The position numbers are program-made. 37,506 bases of DNA from a virus. Taxonomy: Duplodnaviria; Heunggongvirae; Uroviricota; Caudoviricetes. The stretch's first letter is position 1, and every line of letters starts with the position of its first letter. The DNA is taken from IMG/VR virus record IMGVR_UViG_2802429245_000007. One strand, 5' to 3'. Shown here one piece after another: positions 15,001 to 30,000 of the stretch.

Positions 15001-18000
15001 TTGAACCGTCAAAATGGCTGTTGATGGTGATGGAATCCAGCGTCAGCCGTGGCTCCCAGCGACTCAGCGCCACATACACTGCCGACATGACCTGCAGGCG
15101 TAACGCCGGATTTTGTGGCTGGTCTATCAGTGCCGACAGCAGGGAACCATATTCACGGCGAGCAATGCGGCTACCCTGCGGCGTCAGCAGAATGTCCCGC
15201 ACCGACTGGCGCAGATGGTCAATATCAGTAATGGCTTTGCCGCTGGTATTGTTCATCCCGCTATAAAGCGTCATAGCGGGCCTCCGGTTGTGTCGCCGCC
15301 TTTCAGAACGCCAGTATGCTGATGCGCATCAACCACGATCCCGTTAGAACTCATCGCTCCGCCGCCCTGGGTAACGCCACCATTGATCACCACTTCGCTG
15401 TTAATACGCGTGCGATCAGCCTCCAGCACAAACTCACTGGTTTTCATGGTGATGTTGTCAGCGGCCTCAATGACCATTGATTTGATGCCCCTGACATACC
15501 AGCGCCCGGTGGCGGGTTCGTATTCAAACCAGGCGCCGTCAGGATGTTCTGTCACGCAGGCGTCCGCCGACGTAGACGGTGGTGCGAACTGATTCGAATA
15601 GACAGCGGGCAGCGCAAAGGCGGTTTCCAGATTGCCGCCCAGACTCAGCAGCACAACCTGCTCACCTTCCGATGGTCGCCACCATGTGCGGGCATTCCCG
15701 GCACGCAGCGTCAGCCAGCTGATCCAGTTGGTTTCAAGCTCGCCCGTTTTCACCCGGCAAAGCCAGTTTTCCCTGTCCACTTCGGTGACTACCCCAGTGC
15801 GGATCAGGTTGGTGATAAGGCGCATGATTTCGGTTAGTTGTGCGTTCATAGGGCAATGATTCAACATCTTGCATTTATCTTAAAACATATGTATTTGTAT
15901 GAGCGGTCTTACAATATGGAATAACAAAAATGAAATTTCGTTCTTTGTATAAATGGGATTGCCCAGACACTTGTAAAGCACTAGTATATTTTGCGCAATT
16001 ACTGGATGAAATGCTATTTGACTATACACTGGACACATACAAACCCTCAGTGATGAATACCCCAACAATTGGAGTAGAAACTTTAAATACAATTAAAGAT
16101 GTTGAGGATGGTATTATTCAGCCTAAAAATATTGAACATTTAACCGCAGAATTAATACATAACTTGTCATGTGATAAAGTAGCACAAGATTTATTAGGTG
16201 ATGCTTACCAAGCTTTTCTCAACAAACTAAAAAATACTAACATAAGCCCTAAAGAGAGAAGCTCAATAATTGAAATGCTGGTCATTCAATTACCACCCAA
16301 ATTATATAAAGAAAAAAGTGAAGAACTTATCACCCAAGAGTTATCATCCCCTAACTGGGAAAGAAGCATCATACGCAAGCTAACAAGAAATTATATCAGT
16401 TTATTACTCTACATTGGCTTTAGCCAACATAATCTTAAGAATTTAACCCAGCAATTTTTTTATTATGGGAATAATAAAATATCAAATAACACTGATGTCT
16501 CTTCTTTTTTTGATTTAATAAAACTCGAAAAAAAGAAATACAAAATATATTTTATTGTTGAACCAGTGTTTTTAGGCGCAGAGCCAACTTTCGAAAGACT
16601 CTCTTTGTCTGTTGAGAAAGAACCACCAGAAGAATTTTCCCAACATGTTTTTTTTAGAAATCTGCAAAGAAAGAAGATAGTTTGCGTATCAAATATAGAA
16701 GCTTTTGATTCTTATTCAGCAAGAGAGAATGCTGAAAACCTACTTAAATTAGCATCATCCTTTTTAAATATTTATCATCATAAAGATAAACCTACTTGGT
16801 CAAATGAAGCTTTCGTTATAACTGATACAGACTCTTTGAAAGTGGCTGAAAGACTTAACCCCATGAAAAAATGCAAGGACTTAAAGCATGAAAAGGCCAA
16901 GAAACGTCTTGAATCATTGATGTCTGAGTTTTCTCTAGAAAATAGTTCATTTGCCAAGTTCTTGAGAAGTATTCAATTACATTCAATGGCATTAAAAAGT
17001 GAAAATGTTGAAAATCAGCTTTTAAATCTATGGATAGCTCTTGAATCATTAGTGCCGACAGACACTAAATCCAAGGATCAAGCAACAATAGAACATATTA
17101 CTGCAAGTATAATTCCATTCCTGAATATTACATATATAGACTCCTTAATTGACAACCTTACCCGAGACCTGCTGTTATGGAATAGACACATACTAAACTC
17201 ACATTTAAAAGGAATACCTGGAGCAAAAGCGAAACACAAACTAGCCAATATAATGATTCTTCCTGAATACGAATCAGTAAGGGAATCTTTATCCGCTAAA
17301 TTTCGTGATTACACATTGCTTTCAGATCGTTTCGAGTATATAAAAAACATAGTTTCATCCCCGGAGTCAATTAAATCAACTTTAGATAACCATAAGTTAA
17401 GATTAGAATGGCAACTCAGAAGAATTTATAGAACAAGAAATAACATAGTCCATTCTGGAAAAGGTGGTAAATTTACCCCCCTTTTAGTTGAACACACCCA
17501 CAACTATCTTGATAAAGTATTTGAAATACTTGTTATGCTTGCATCAAAACCCCGAAAAATTCGCTCTGTAACACAGGGGTTTAGATATGTAAAAATAATC
17601 TATGAACAAAGGTACGAAACTATTACAGAAAAGAACTTCACTTTCGATATGAGCAATATTAATAATAATTTATTTTGGGATTGATATAACCTAAAATCAA
17701 TCGGTGAGGTTAGAGTAGGAACTACAAAAAGTCAACCAACTCTACCTCGCCAACCATTGCAATAAAATGCGGCGTGTTAAAAAGTATAAATCATCATTTA
17801 CACCCAGCAGGCGACGCTCTGCGTAACGGACCTCCGGTCCTTTGCGACTGACGCGATCACGCAGGCCGTAATGGTGAACGCGGGCAATGCGCTGCACCTT
17901 GCCTTCAAACTGCACGCTGGCAGAGTCGGCGCTGGCGGCAGTTTTCAGGTATTTTGTGGTGCGCAGCTTTGCAAACATCTGACGTTTGATACGGCCTTTT

Positions 18001-27000: not shown

Positions 27001-30000
27001 TTTCCACATAAAAACCCATATTCCACAATTCGCCATCAAGGTCCCCAAGAGCTTCATCTTGCTCCTGTATATCTTTAGAAAAAATAAAATCATCTGCTAA
27101 AAGAAAACCCGTAAAATTATCACCACCAAAATGAGTATTATAATCAACCTCATCATAAAAATATCTCACTATAGCCTTCAGCAAGTTATGTACTTCAAGT
27201 GATTCAGTATCTAAACAAATATTATCTGAACCACAAAAAGCACAAGTACTATGAATGTTTTGCAAACGCATTAAGTTTTTAATATTTGATTCGATAATAT
27301 GATTTTCGCAGATAAACATTATAATCCCCCTTAATTACCCCTTAGATACTAATTATTGCCGTTTGGGACTGCGCGCGCAATCGTATCCCCGCCACGCCTA
27401 CCCGCTTTATGCAGTGGTTTTCATGCGCCTGCATGACATATGCAACAGCCCGCCAGCTCAGGCTGGCATCAGCGAAAACGATCGTCATACTATCATGCGA
27501 TCTCATGCGCCATATGAAGTTTTCCTGACACAGCCTTGGGTTGGGATAACACCTAACTCAGGAAGATTTTTTGTGTGTTTGTAACCCGCACCTAGAGTTT
27601 ACCAATCCATGTTTGCGGCATTATCCATCTCACGAGTTAAGTAATTAACCAATAAGTCCATATTCCTTTCTGATTTCATCGCCTCCGCATAGGTTCCATT
27701 AGTTACGTAAGATAGTATTAAAGGACATCCAGATTCAATATAAATTTTTGCTGGGGACAGTTCTCCCTGCCACAAATTTTCAAGAAAATCGTTAATTAAT
27801 TGCATTGCTTCAGGTGCCAAAAAATGCACACCATTTCCAAACTTGAAACGTTCTTTATTTTCTCGATGAGGCAGCAATAGTGGCACAGCCCCTACACTTG
27901 AGTGAAATTCCAATGCTTGCCCATCCTTACCGAAGGCGCCATGGGCTACAAAATTACGCACCTGTTTTCTGAGTATAAGTAAACGATCATAGAATGATTT
28001 TAGACTGGAAGAGTTAATATCAATGGCTAATTTGAATTTCTCCCCCCATTCTTTTCCAACTTTATCAGCCACATCATTCCCATTTTTTATCTCACCCTTC
28101 AAGATTGCAATAAGAATGAAAACATGCTCGGTCCAATTGAAAAATGACTCAATTGCAGACGTTGCTAACCACATAGCCTCTCTTCGGAGTTCAATTATCT
28201 TATTTGATTGTTCAAAAGTGGATTGTAACAGGCTGAAAAAATTATCAGACTTAAACTCACTATCAACTTCCAGTTTAGACTCTTGGCCAGCAGCAACTTC
28301 ATCAAGCTTCTGTTTATATAGCTCTAAAAAATAGCAAAACCTATCATAAAGAGAATTAGCATTGTTATTAACATTTAGATTTGAAGTCTTTGCTGCATTG
28401 TCTGCAAGCGAGTCAAAAAATTTCGTAGCAGCTTTAACCCCTGCGCAAATATGTCTCAAAACAGTTTTAGCTTGCTCTATATCATCATCACTCTTGATAA
28501 ATATATCTAAACCAAGTTTACGATGTTCTATAATTACGACAGTCCCATCAATCCGGACTGGGATAGAAAAAGAAATCTTCTCATCAACCCCACGATTTTT
28601 AAATTTCAGTAAATCTACCAAAAGAAAATAAACGAGATAATACGGAGGTAATGAGTCTCCCAAACCCGAGCGCTTACCCCAAAAATATTCATCAAGCTCG
28701 GCAGACTCCATTGTCCCTATGACTCTTCGGACGCGTTCTTCAACTTTAGCCAGATCCATTCCCCACACCGCCTTTCAATATCACTTAAGGTATTACAGCC
28801 AATGACATCGATTAAATACAGCGTAGATAATAGGCAACTTGCTACTGTTTTCAAGGGCTTTCTGTTTCAATCCTTAGTTGACCTTGCTGACGCGAGAATC
28901 TAGTTCTCACGCCAGCAACGCCCCTGCTGCTAACCGGGAAGATCCATTACACGGTTATATTCATGGGCACGAATTTTCGCCATCAACTCATCAGTCAGCT
29001 CTGAAACCCACTGCAGAGCCAGCCCCTTCTCTTCATCACTACACTCACTAGCCGCTACAAGCTTAAGAAAAAAATCAATGCGCTGGAGCTTCAAAGACTC
29101 CAAAAAATAGTCCTGCATCTTTCCTCCTATGACACCAAAACAATACTGTATACATAACCACTGTTTATATTTACAGTATATAATAATCTTACTGATGTAA
29201 AACGTTTTTTTACGCTCATCAGCCTGATATGCCTGGTATTATTAAGAGCACGAATTGTTAACCCGCGTAATTAATACAGGTTCCGCCACTTGTCATCTTC
29301 CTGCAAACGCTGGTTCCGATAGAAGATACGCAGGCCTGCTCCTGACGGAATACTGCCGCCGCGAAGGAGTAAATCGACCTCTTTCTCGCTGCCATCAAAT
29401 CCTCTGGACCTCAGTTCATAGACGAGCTGCTGTCGCTGATGGTCTGTAATTCGCTGTTTGTAGTCTTTACGCCGTTTCGGTTTCACCTGGCGTAACCTTG
29501 CAGCCAGTTCCCGGCGCTCTTTTTTGCTCATACTGTGCAGGTAATCGTGCAACTCCTTGTCATTCATACGGGTAATATCCGTTCTGGAGTCCCCATCAGC
29601 TGATTTGTCTTTCCCTTGTTGGTTCAAATTTTCAGCAAGGGGACAGTTATTGCCACGAGTCCAAGGGGCGCAAGCGCCCTGGTCGGCTGCCGCCTCCTGA
29701 ACGTCAACGGCCTTACGAACCATTTTCCACTTCACGGCATGAGTGCAGATCTTGCCCTCTGCAATGGGTGACCAGATGCCATAAATACGAATGCCGTGAT
29801 CGCCATAGGCGGTCGGCTCTTCGTTAATTTCATAAGCGGTTCTGATGAGGTGATATTTGCGGGGAACCAGTACGCCGCCCTGCTTCATGATGTAGGTGGC
29901 AAAACAACCAGCATCAGCAGCAGCCAGGATGGCATCAAGGCGCGGGTTATCCAGTACCGGCGCACCTGCTTTTTTGTCGCCCTGTTGCCTTGCCGCCTGA

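What the first reader, a model, noticed from the sequence alone, without database searches (positions are those of the whole stretch)
15930..28768. Two cargo proteins at different hotspots share a helix motif and the same R-N-x3-H-G context
Seen in sequence: the 584-aa protein has NLWIALESLVP followed about 135 aa later by RTRNNIVHSGKG; the 389-aa protein has AMWLATSAIESFF followed about 70 aa later by RKQVRNFVAHGAFGKDG. Both show W-(I/L)-A-x-x-(A/E)-(I/L)-E-S-(L/F) upstream of R-N-x-(V/I)-x-H-x-G. Inference: both carry the same family of HEPN-like catalytic module attached to different N-terminal regions, suggesting modular exchange of effector domains between prophage hotspots.
Basis: inference. 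Interest (0 to 1): 0.55.

Follow-up and report, generated by a model that had tools for sequence, protein, structure and literature searches.

The report
Two unrelated HEPN RNase genes in prophage
A P2-like prophage carries two cargo genes that both have the HEPN RNase fold and its catalytic R-N-x3-H signature: one is the already characterised defence protein ApeA and the other belongs to an unannotated family, so they share a superfamily but not a family, and nothing indicates that a domain was exchanged between them.

Summary
In the 584-aa protein W368 is followed by E-S at +4/+5. In the 389-aa protein W200 is followed by E-S at +7/+8. The G after the catalytic H is also offset by one residue. 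Only R-N-x-[VI]-x-H is truly shared, and that is the signature of the whole HEPN superfamily.

The 584-aa protein is Ec3ApeA (582/584 identical to PDB 9hxj). ApeA is a published HEPN anticodon nuclease and anti-phage protein. Here it is inserted between baseplate gene V and tail gene S.

BLASTP, Smith-Waterman against shuffles, hhalign (full-length and domain-only) and a profile search of PDB all find no X–ApeA similarity beyond the 8-residue catalytic motif. Family X keeps a fixed architecture of about 385 aa.

Verdict: both are HEPN (supported); same family and modular exchange (not supported). Family X is a plausible new single-gene HEPN defence candidate.

The parts
15930..17684 (+). apeA gene (584 aa), equal to Ec3ApeA apart from T135I and V190A. 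A single-protein HEPN anti-phage system, inserted as cargo between baseplate gene V (15271-15867, -) and tail-completion gene S (17742-18188, -). GC about 0.32-0.38 against about 0.55 in the flanks.
   Evidence: PDB 9hxj, full-length match, score 1294 bits; PADLOC ApeA, 1.4e-13; GC; related P2-like phages have V and S adjacent with no insert.
16932..17684 (+). HEPN_ApeA domain (about aa 335-584).
   Evidence: Domain limits taken from Ec2ApeA (335-583) in bioRxiv 10.64898/2026.01.26.701840. The PADLOC ApeA match covers aa 337-535.
17025..17057 (+). N366, W368, E372, S373 and P376 are invariant in the ApeA relatives. It lies in a short helix, 360-374.
17436..17453 (+). Catalytic HEPN motif R503-N-N-I-V-H508, at the end of helix 478-509. 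The equivalent arginine, R502 of Ec2ApeA, is essential for defence.
   Evidence: paper.
27599..28768 (-). Family-X gene. The mechanical ORF is 389 aa from a GTG. The likely true start is the ATG at 28759, giving 386 aa as in NCBI records. It is an uncharacterised predicted HEPN protein and lies in the gpA-gpQ defence hotspot.
   Evidence: No hit in Pfam, NCBIfam, PHROGs or PADLOC.
28382..28768 (-). Family-X N-terminal alpha/beta domain (about aa 1-129). Strongly conserved (LPPYYLVYFLLVDLL, EHRKxGL; K64, K84 and G86 near-invariant). No recognisable relatives; presumed sensor or regulatory domain.
27602..28381 (-). Family-X helical C-terminal region (about aa 130-389) holding the predicted HEPN fold. 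It has a beta-hairpin insert (aa 286-298; FHSxxGAVP conserved) and a conserved C-terminus, AANMDW.
28142..28171 (-). Across the wider family W200 is kept in 56/69, position 207 is E or D (39/29) and 208 is mostly A. The truly invariant acidic residue is E214, in WTEH.
27941..27958 (-). Predicted catalytic HEPN motif R271-N-F-V-A-H276, followed by G277. R, N, H and G are kept in 67-68 of 69 diverse family members. It sits at the C-terminal end of helix 254-275.
26165..27319 (-). Neighbouring cargo gene: a 384-aa RES-domain protein (RES at aa 213-344). It is a separate module, not a partner of family X.
   Evidence: Pfam RES, 4.2e-18. (found alone at the same site in E. coli 19KM2415N). (family X occurs without it in E. 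coli L725).
27372..27518 (.). Conserved non-coding junction of about 147 bp between the two cargo slots of the gpA-gpQ hotspot. It is present in prophages that carry X alone, RES alone or other cargo.

Best explanation
The prophage carries two independent single-gene cargo modules whose effector domains both belong to the HEPN RNase superfamily but to different families.

**(1) The 584-aa gene between V and S is ApeA (the Ec3ApeA variant).** What follows is shown by published work. ApeA is a doughnut-shaped oligomer of HEPN dimers. [quoted passage not shown]

**(2) The 389/386-aa gene in the gpA-gpQ hotspot belongs to a large unannotated family, 'family X'.** It has a conserved alpha/beta N-terminal domain followed by a HEPN-fold helical domain. 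That domain has a near-invariant R271-N-x3-H276-G motif at the end of a helix. What follows is inferred. It most likely acts as a stand-alone sensor-effector RNase: the HEPN domains dimerise to form a composite site, the N-terminal domain keeps it latent or senses infection, and activated enzyme cleaves RNA by the metal-independent HEPN mechanism to block phage growth or kill the cell.

**The resemblance.** It is not evidence of a shared family or of domain shuffling.
For: **ApeA identity**
- 582/584 identical to PDB 9hxj Ec3ApeA.
- PADLOC ApeA 1.4e-13.
- The counterparts of the Ec2ApeA pocket residues are invariant in the relatives (R149, R153, Y402, H488, R491, Q495), as is the catalytic R503/H508 (residues named).
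- Function comes from bioRxiv 10.64898/2026.01.26.701840.

**Cargo status**
- Low GC.
- The V-S junction is empty in related phages.
- gpA-gpQ is the main P2 defence hotspot (PMC13586616).

**Family X is HEPN**
- R271, N272, H276 and G277 are invariant in 37 close sequences and kept in 67-68 of 69 diverse ones.
- The motif sits at the end of helix 254-275, as expected for HEPN helix 3 (PMC3710099).
- An ApeA model hits all eight of these, among further HEPN structures.
- Weak sequence signals point to Csx1/Csm6-type HEPN: Pfam 0.041; PADLOC CARF_HEPN 7e-4 in 2 members.

**Different families:**

**Stand-alone mobile or defence gene**
- No conserved neighbour.
- Found directly after hsdM-hsdS-hsdR in a Klebsiella integrase island, after HTH-HipA on a conjugative-type element, and next to ParDE plus ArdA, PIN/Phd, HNH and a transposase.
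- In another E. coli P2-like prophage it has different neighbours.

**Fixed architecture:**
Against: - No experiment or published test exists for family X. Its HEPN fold rests on an AF2 model.
- Some HEPN domains with an intact R-x(4-6)-H motif show no RNase activity in vitro, for example AbiA (PMC11077055).
- Several genomic contexts of X are ordinary housekeeping neighbourhoods, so the defence association is suggestive rather than quantified.
Confidence: 0.75

Rival explanations
1. One reading: the two proteins carry the same family of HEPN module, joined to different N-terminal regions by recent modular exchange between prophage hotspots.
For: - Both have R-N-x-[VI]-x-H preceded by a helix with a conserved W and an E-S pair.
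- Both are HEPN by fold and share structural neighbours.
- P2 hotspots are known to swap and mix modules (PMC13586616).
Against: - No similarity above background by BLASTP, Smith-Waterman against shuffles, hhalign (three settings) or profile-versus-PDB search.
- The helix motifs are out of register by 3 residues.
- They sit in different structural settings: a 15-residue helix 135 aa before R in ApeA, against the middle of a 50-residue helix 71 aa before R in X.
- Family X has a fixed architecture in 995 clusters, with no ApeA-like chimeras seen in the 150 listed.
Confidence: 0.04
2. The upstream helix similarity is real but ancient. In both proteins it would be the equivalent HEPN core helix carrying the superfamily's second conserved acidic residue, so the reader detected a true superfamily-level feature rather than noise.
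For: - Many HEPN families have a conserved acidic residue upstream of R-x4-6-H, positioned near the active site (PMC3710099).
- E372 is invariant in ApeA.
- Family X has acidic residues on the preceding long helix: E/D207 and invariant E214.
Against:
- The registers differ.
- hhalign never pairs the two helices, and its best, non-significant pairing puts the X helix on ApeA's post-catalytic helix.
Confidence: 0.2
3. Family X is not an anti-phage RNase. Its HEPN-like domain would be a non-catalytic dimerisation or nucleic-acid-binding module, as reported for AbiA's HEPN. Alternatively the gene would be an addiction or toxin-type element, or serve a phage function unrelated to defence.
For: - Several X homologues lie next to toxin-antitoxin genes.
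- No defence database lists the family.
Against: - Near-invariance of R, N, H and G across sequences only 21-46% identical to the window protein argues for catalysis rather than scaffolding.
- The gene sits in the principal P2 defence hotspot.
- It also sits directly downstream of a type I R-M operon.
- No adjacent conserved antitoxin-like gene was seen.
Confidence: 0.15

Closest known systems
ApeA (Ec3ApeA, PDB 9hxj; PADLOC ApeA; HEPN 'ApeA/BMEI1217' family of Anantharaman et al. 2013)
   Same: The 584-aa protein is this protein: 582/584 identical, full length, the same catalytic R503/H508, and conserved ligand-pocket residues. Family X resembles it only in principle: one polypeptide, an N-terminal non-catalytic region plus a C-terminal HEPN with R-N-x3-H, carried as prophage cargo.
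   Different: For the 584-aa protein there are only two substitutions (T135I, V190A). Family X is about 200 aa shorter, and its N-terminal region is an alpha/beta domain followed by a long helical hairpin, unlike ApeA's helical N-terminal and separate Mid domains. It has no detectable sequence or profile similarity, and the HEPN insertions differ: a beta-hairpin after the catalytic motif in X, against multi-helix insertions in ApeA.
Minimal HEPN toxins (HepT of HepT-MntA: PDB 5yep, 7ae2, 8xdj; HI0074; TTHA0636)
   Different: HepT toxins are about 130-aa proteins neutralised by an adjacent MNT nucleotidyltransferase antitoxin. Family X has an extra N-terminal domain of about 130 aa, elongated helices and inserts, and no conserved neighbouring gene.
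AbiA C-terminal HEPN domain (PDB 8oz7)
   Different: AbiA's partner domain is an RT-like DNA polymerase. Its motif is R-x6-H, and it showed no RNase activity in vitro. The rmsd of the match is high (12.3 A), so part of the score comes from long helices.
PrrC / RloC anticodon nucleases (HEPN effectors associated with type I R-M operons)
   Same: This is a functional analogy for family X. A HEPN protein is encoded within or next to a type I restriction-modification operon. The Klebsiella X homologue starts 12 nt after hsdR.
   Different: PrrC and RloC carry an N-terminal ABC-ATPase domain, and family X does not. No homology was detected, and the R-M linkage of X is seen in one lineage only.
Csx1/Csm6-type HEPN domains
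   Same: The only sequence-level signals for family X are weak hits around the catalytic helix: Pfam Csx1_HEPN E = 0.041, and PADLOC CARF_HEPN 7e-4 and Csx1/Csm6 0.01 in 2 of 37 members each.
   Different: All hits are below the curated thresholds. Family X has no CARF domain and no CRISPR context.

Membership tests
ApeA (for the 584-aa protein) | Full-length sequence homology to experimentally characterised ApeA proteins | tested here: met
   9hxj Ec3ApeA, score 1294 bits over residues 1-584 with 2 substitutions; Ec2ApeA E 8.7e-135; Ec1ApeA 1.9e-11; Ec4ApeA 8.2e-08. PADLOC ApeA 1.4e-13.
ApeA (for the 584-aa protein) | HEPN catalytic R-x4-H in the C-terminal domain | tested here: met
   R503-N-N-I-V-H508. 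R503, N504 and H508 are invariant in 33 relatives. The equivalent R502A abolishes defence in Ec2ApeA.
ApeA (for the 584-aa protein) | [quoted passage not shown] | tested here: met
   The counterparts of Ec2ApeA R148, R152, Y401, H487, R490 and Q494 are R149, R153, Y402, H488, R491 and Q495, all invariant in alignment A2. The ligand of Ec3ApeA itself is unknown.
ApeA (for the 584-aa protein) | Anti-phage activity and tRNA anticodon cleavage | not testable with these tools
   The literature reports moderate protection by Ec3ApeA and tRNA cleavage by Ec1ApeA.
ApeA (for the 389-aa protein) | Detectable sequence or profile homology to ApeA | tested here: not met
   BLASTP E 0.38; shuffle test p 0.23; hhalign probability 0.4-1.8%; no PADLOC ApeA hit in 37 members; the X profile finds no PDB chain at E <= 10.
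ApeA (for the 389-aa protein) | Three-domain architecture of about 590 aa (helical N-terminal, Mid, split HEPN) | tested here: not met
   The family is 386-389 aa here and about 380-400 aa across its members. It has a 130-aa alpha/beta N-domain followed by a helical domain.
HEPN superfamily (for the 389-aa protein) | Conserved R-x4-6-H motif with a polar residue (N/D/H) after R | tested here: met
   R271-N272-x3-H276 is invariant in A1 and kept in 67-68 of 69 diverse members. The criterion is from PMC3710099.
HEPN superfamily (for the 389-aa protein) | Motif located at the end of helix 3 of a four-helix up-down bundle | tested here: met
HEPN superfamily (for the 389-aa protein) | Match to a curated HEPN family model | tested here: inconclusive
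   Only sub-threshold hits: Pfam Csx1_HEPN E 0.041, 14.7 bits against a cut-off of 23; PADLOC CARF_HEPN 7e-4 in 2 of 37 members.
HEPN superfamily (for the 389-aa protein) | Dimerisation forming a composite active site; metal-independent RNase activity | not testable with these tools
   No multimer prediction or biochemistry was available.
RES-domain toxins (for the neighbouring 384-aa protein) | RES domain | tested here: met
   Pfam RES 4.2e-18, 66 bits against a cut-off of 23.2, aa 213-344. RefSeq names the homologue 'RES family NAD+ phosphorylase'.
RES-domain toxins (for the neighbouring 384-aa protein) | Adjacent Xre-type antitoxin, as in RES-Xre type II TA systems | tested here: not met
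   No such gene is annotated next to it in the window or in E. coli 19KM2415N. The NCBIfam Res_ParT_toxin score is far below its cut-off. The protein instead has an N-terminal extension of about 210 aa.

The most novel reading that the evidence does not exclude
Family X would be a previously undescribed single-protein anti-phage system. Its features are about 385 aa, a new alpha/beta N-terminal domain plus a HEPN domain with R-N-x3-H-G, FHSxxGAVP and a C-terminal AANMDW, and 995 clusters at 50% identity across Proteobacteria and metagenomes. The N-terminal domain would sense infection and unleash a HEPN RNase. The mechanism would parallel ApeA or PrrC while having evolved independently. The same prophage would then stack two mechanistically convergent HEPN defences in two hotspots.
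Probability: 0.5. Interest if true: 0.5.

Novelty: new member of a known kind. Interest (0 to 1): 0.3.

Why it matters
The claimed link, one effector module shuffled between prophage hotspots, would have been a neat example of domain-level exchange in defence islands. The evidence does not support it.

What remains is useful but modest.
1. The window holds an intact copy of Ec3ApeA in its natural site. Only one of 5,426 complete E. coli genomes carries that gene, and there it is frameshifted.
2. A large, completely unannotated HEPN family sits in the best-known P2 defence hotspot. It is a concrete, testable candidate for a new single-gene defence system with a new sensor domain.
3. The case is a caution. 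R-N-x3-H plus a nearby amphipathic helix marks the HEPN superfamily, not any particular family.

Tried and rejected
- **Pairwise tests.** BLASTP and Smith-Waterman against shuffles showed no signal. The only nominal p = 0.03 alignment paired X's catalytic helix with ApeA's upstream helix, which is wrong biologically.
- **hhalign.** I tried full-length, C-terminal-only, core-only, global and low-mact runs, and a run with a 69-sequence diverse X profile. Nothing was significant.
- **Foldseek of the X model against PDB.** It returned only coiled-coil noise (E > 0.1) and was uninformative.
- **AFDB libraries.** They were unavailable, so annotated AFDB neighbours of X could not be obtained.
- **The RES gene as a partner of X.** I considered a two-gene system and rejected it, because each gene occurs without the other at the same site.
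- **P2 cos 19-mer.** I searched for it to interpret the conserved 147-bp junction and found no match with up to 3 mismatches.
- **Literature.** Searches for family-X accession numbers returned nothing.
- **Promoter and terminator scans.** Counts were at or below the shuffled expectation. A TTGAAA-16-TATTAT site about 60 bp upstream of the ATG at 28759 is noted only as plausible.
- **First script.** It timed out and was rewritten.

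
Full report
**Setting.** The window is a P2-like prophage. It has a host permease gene at the left end, then tail, baseplate, lysis, capsid, terminase and portal genes, replication gene A, a Dam methylase, a CI-type repressor and an integrase. Three low-GC islands (GC 0.32-0.41 against about 0.55) interrupt it, at 10.0-12.0 kb, 16-18 kb and 26-29 kb. The finding concerns the second and third.

**Checking the observation.** All four quoted strings are present at the stated positions.

The generalisation does not survive a literal test.
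- The regular expression W[IL]A..[AE][IL]ES[LF] matches only the 389-aa protein.
- RN.[VI].H.G matches only the 584-aa protein.
- In the 584-aa protein E-S lies at +4/+5 from the tryptophan. In the 389-aa protein it lies at +7/+8. One can align W-[IL]-A or A-[IL]-E-S-[LF], but not both.
- The glycine after the histidine is also shifted by one residue (HSG against HGA).
- What is truly shared is R-N-x-[VI]-x-H.

Statistically nothing exceeds background.
- The helix 11-mer scores 16 against 10.9 +/- 4.0 in shuffles, p = 0.13.
- Full-length Smith-Waterman gives p = 0.23.
- BLASTP gives E = 0.38.

**The 584-aa protein is ApeA.** It is 582/584 identical over its whole length to the ApeA moiety of PDB 9hxj, 'Bacterial antiviral defense protein Ec3ApeA'. 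It is clearly related to Ec2, Ec1 and Ec4 ApeA, and it matches the PADLOC ApeA model.

According to bioRxiv 10.64898/2026.01.26.701840:
- ApeA proteins are single-gene abortive-infection systems.
- Their split HEPN domain (Ec2ApeA 335-583) cuts tRNA anticodon loops.
- They form doughnut-shaped oligomers; Ec3ApeA is a dodecamer.
- They are activated through a pocket between the N-terminal and HEPN domains; Ec2ApeA binds 5'-phosphorylated deoxydinucleotides.
- Ec3ApeA gave moderate protection.

A second preprint reports that Ec1ApeA cleaves the genomic RNA of RNA phages.

In my alignment of 33 relatives, the catalytic R503/N504/H508 are invariant.

Related P2-like phages have V and S adjacent with nothing between them, so apeA is an insertion at that junction. 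Only one of 5,426 complete E. coli genomes carries this gene, at the same site. There it is split into two CDS by a 1-bp length difference.

**The 389-aa protein belongs to an unannotated family ('family X').**
- Pfam, NCBIfam, PHROGs and PADLOC give nothing above threshold. The only hint is Csx1_HEPN at E = 0.041.
- No solved structure is related by sequence, even when searching with a family profile at E <= 10.
- The family is nevertheless large: more than 1,040 clusters at 90% identity and 995 representatives at 50% identity.
- Every source calls its members 'hypothetical protein'.
- NCBI records start the protein at the ATG three codons downstream, giving 386 aa.
- Full-length members are almost all 360-440 aa and match the whole profile. 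The architecture is therefore fixed. One 633-aa member and a few others carry extra N-terminal sequence.

**Is family X a HEPN protein?**

Conservation says yes.
- R271, N272, H276 and G277 are invariant among 37 close homologues.
- They are kept in 67-68 of 69 members that are only 21-46% identical to the query.
- Other near-invariant positions are K64, K84 and G86 (N-terminal domain), N135, E214-H215, W241, K244, G293, P296 and M387.
W200 is kept in 56/69, position 207 is E or D, and 208 is mostly A. The invariant acid is E214.

Structure prediction agrees.
- The AF2 model has pLDDT 88.4 and pTM 0.81.
- It shows an alpha/beta N-terminal domain (aa 1-130).
- A long helical hairpin follows (137-168 and 174-223).
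- Helix 254-275 ends exactly at R271-H276.
- After that come a beta-hairpin (286-298) and further helices.

That placement is where HEPN domains carry R-x4-6-H (PMC3710099).

- A run of minimal HEPN proteins follows, each covered almost end to end: 5yep_B, 1jog, 8xdj, 7ae2, 1wwp, 2jpu, 2hsb.

**Same family?** No evidence supports it.
- hhalign of the two family alignments gives 0.4% probability.
- Restricted to the C-terminal domains, it aligns only the eight columns RNxxxH(G/S)(A/G), with P = 0.26-0.4.
- With the more diverse X profile (Neff 5.5) the best alignment has 0.7-1.8% probability. It pairs X's W-helix with ApeA's helix after the catalytic motif, not with NLWIALESL.
- None of 37 X members touches the PADLOC ApeA model. 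Two members weakly touch each of the CARF_HEPN and Csx1/Csm6 models.
- The structural settings of the two 'shared' helices also differ. In ApeA it is a 15-residue helix followed by Pro and seven further helices before the catalytic helix. In X it is the middle of a 50-residue helix, two short helices away from the catalytic helix.

**Modular exchange?** The evidence is against it.
- Family X shows no alternative domain partners in the 150 representatives listed.
- The cargo genes assort independently:
  - E. coli L725 has X at the same site next to different genes (STAS-like and others).
  - E. coli 19KM2415N has the RES gene without X.
  - E. coli EC416 has apeA with a P-loop NTPase in the gpA-gpQ hotspot.

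Whole genes are exchanged between prophages, as described for P2 hotspots (PMC13586616). Effector domains are not.

**What family X probably does.** Its homologues have no conserved neighbour. They sit:
- 12 nt downstream of hsdR in a Klebsiella island that carries an integrase;
- directly after HTH-HipA on an element with a TraG-type coupling protein;
- next to ParDE plus ArdA, PIN/Phd plus BrnA, an HNH protein, or a transposase;
- sometimes among housekeeping genes.

Together with its place in the main P2 defence hotspot, this fits a mobile, self-contained conflict gene. I infer a latent HEPN RNase whose conserved N-terminal domain senses infection or gates activity. That would be mechanistically analogous to ApeA or PrrC but of independent origin. 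The steps from the fold onward (dimerisation, RNase activity, trigger, target) are inference. AbiA shows that an intact motif does not guarantee detectable RNase activity.

**Verdict.** Both proteins are HEPN. They are not the same family, and nothing shows domain exchange. ApeA is already known and solved. Family X is a new, unannotated member of a known kind, the HEPN effectors in defence hotspots, and is worth a simple phage-challenge test.

Noticed in passing
window 27372-27518: A non-coding segment of about 147 bp between the family-X gene and the RES gene is conserved (85-94% identity). It occurs once each in 64 complete E. coli genomes, always inside the gpA-gpQ hotspot of P2-like prophages. 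It separates the portal-proximal cargo slot from the A-proximal slot whatever the cargo: RES alone, X alone, or a DUF4145 protein in LF82 and TW10598. It contains a GC-rich hairpin (GCCCGCCAG...CTGGCGGGC). It could be a terminator or promoter block and a homology anchor for swapping modules.
   Followed up: partly
window 26165-27319 (-): A 384-aa RES-domain protein with an N-terminal extension of about 210 aa (Cys-rich start, CAFCGSDNIC) and no adjacent Xre-type antitoxin. It has no PADLOC hit. RefSeq calls the homologue 'RES family NAD+ phosphorylase'. It occurs as the only hotspot cargo of this kind in E. coli 19KM2415N. It may be another single-gene defence or toxin candidate.
   Followed up: partly
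L014 12063-13816 (E. coli EC416, NZ_AP027404.1): This is the only complete E. coli genome in the collection that carries this apeA allele (99.7% identical DNA, same V-S site). It annotates the gene as two CDS of 195 and 372 aa, and the match is 1 bp shorter than the query. The gene is apparently frameshifted there, whereas the window copy is intact.
   Followed up: partly
L004-L007 6001-7185 (Klebsiella and relatives): A family-X homologue (60% identical) starts 12 nt after the stop of hsdR in an hsdM-hsdS-hsdR operon, within an island that has an integrase and an HNH/ScoMcrA-like gene. The arrangement recalls the PrrC anticodon nuclease embedded in type I R-M loci.
   Followed up: no
L015 2699-3397 (E. 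coli LF82) and L016: In other P2-like prophages the portal-proximal slot holds a DUF4145-domain protein. DUF4145 is a Pfam model that Anantharaman et al. 2013 treat as prototyping a HEPN domain. HEPN effectors of several unrelated families therefore recur in this hotspot, which alone would produce R-x4-H look-alikes between cargo genes.
   Followed up: no
window 10185-11180 (+): A third low-GC cargo island, between the tail sheath gene and the tail-fibre assembly gene, encodes a 331-aa Acyl_transf_3 membrane acyltransferase (Pfam 3.4e-21). It is probably a surface-polysaccharide-modifying lysogenic-conversion gene.
   Followed up: no
window 31709-33624 (-): Between replication gene A and the early genes lie a PAPS-reductase-domain protein (weak PADLOC SspD, BrxP and DndC hits) and a D12-class Dam methyltransferase (orphan MTase model, 1.3e-110).
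   Followed up: no
window 28930-29118 (-): A 62-aa ORF between gene A and the family-X gene is conserved and annotated as hypothetical in several E. coli P2-like prophages (for example WP_001154428.1 and WP_001154434.1). It has no Pfam match. It seems to be a fixed part of the phage backbone at the edge of the hotspot.
   Followed up: no
window 28759-28768 (-): The mechanical ORF of family X starts at a GTG (389 aa). NCBI records and the homologues start at the ATG three codons downstream (386 aa, MDLAKVEER...). A sigma-70-like site, TTGAAA-16-TATTAT, lies at 28854-28827.
   Followed up: partly
L008 7197-12325 (Plastoroseomonas) and L002 9005-10381 (Thalassospira): Two family-X homologues lie near queuosine-related genes. 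One is beside a full queC-queG-queF-tgt-queA cluster with a Vut_1 transporter. The other is near a QueC-like 458-aa protein. This may be coincidence, but it is worth a look given that HEPN defence nucleases often target tRNA anticodon loops.
   Followed up: no
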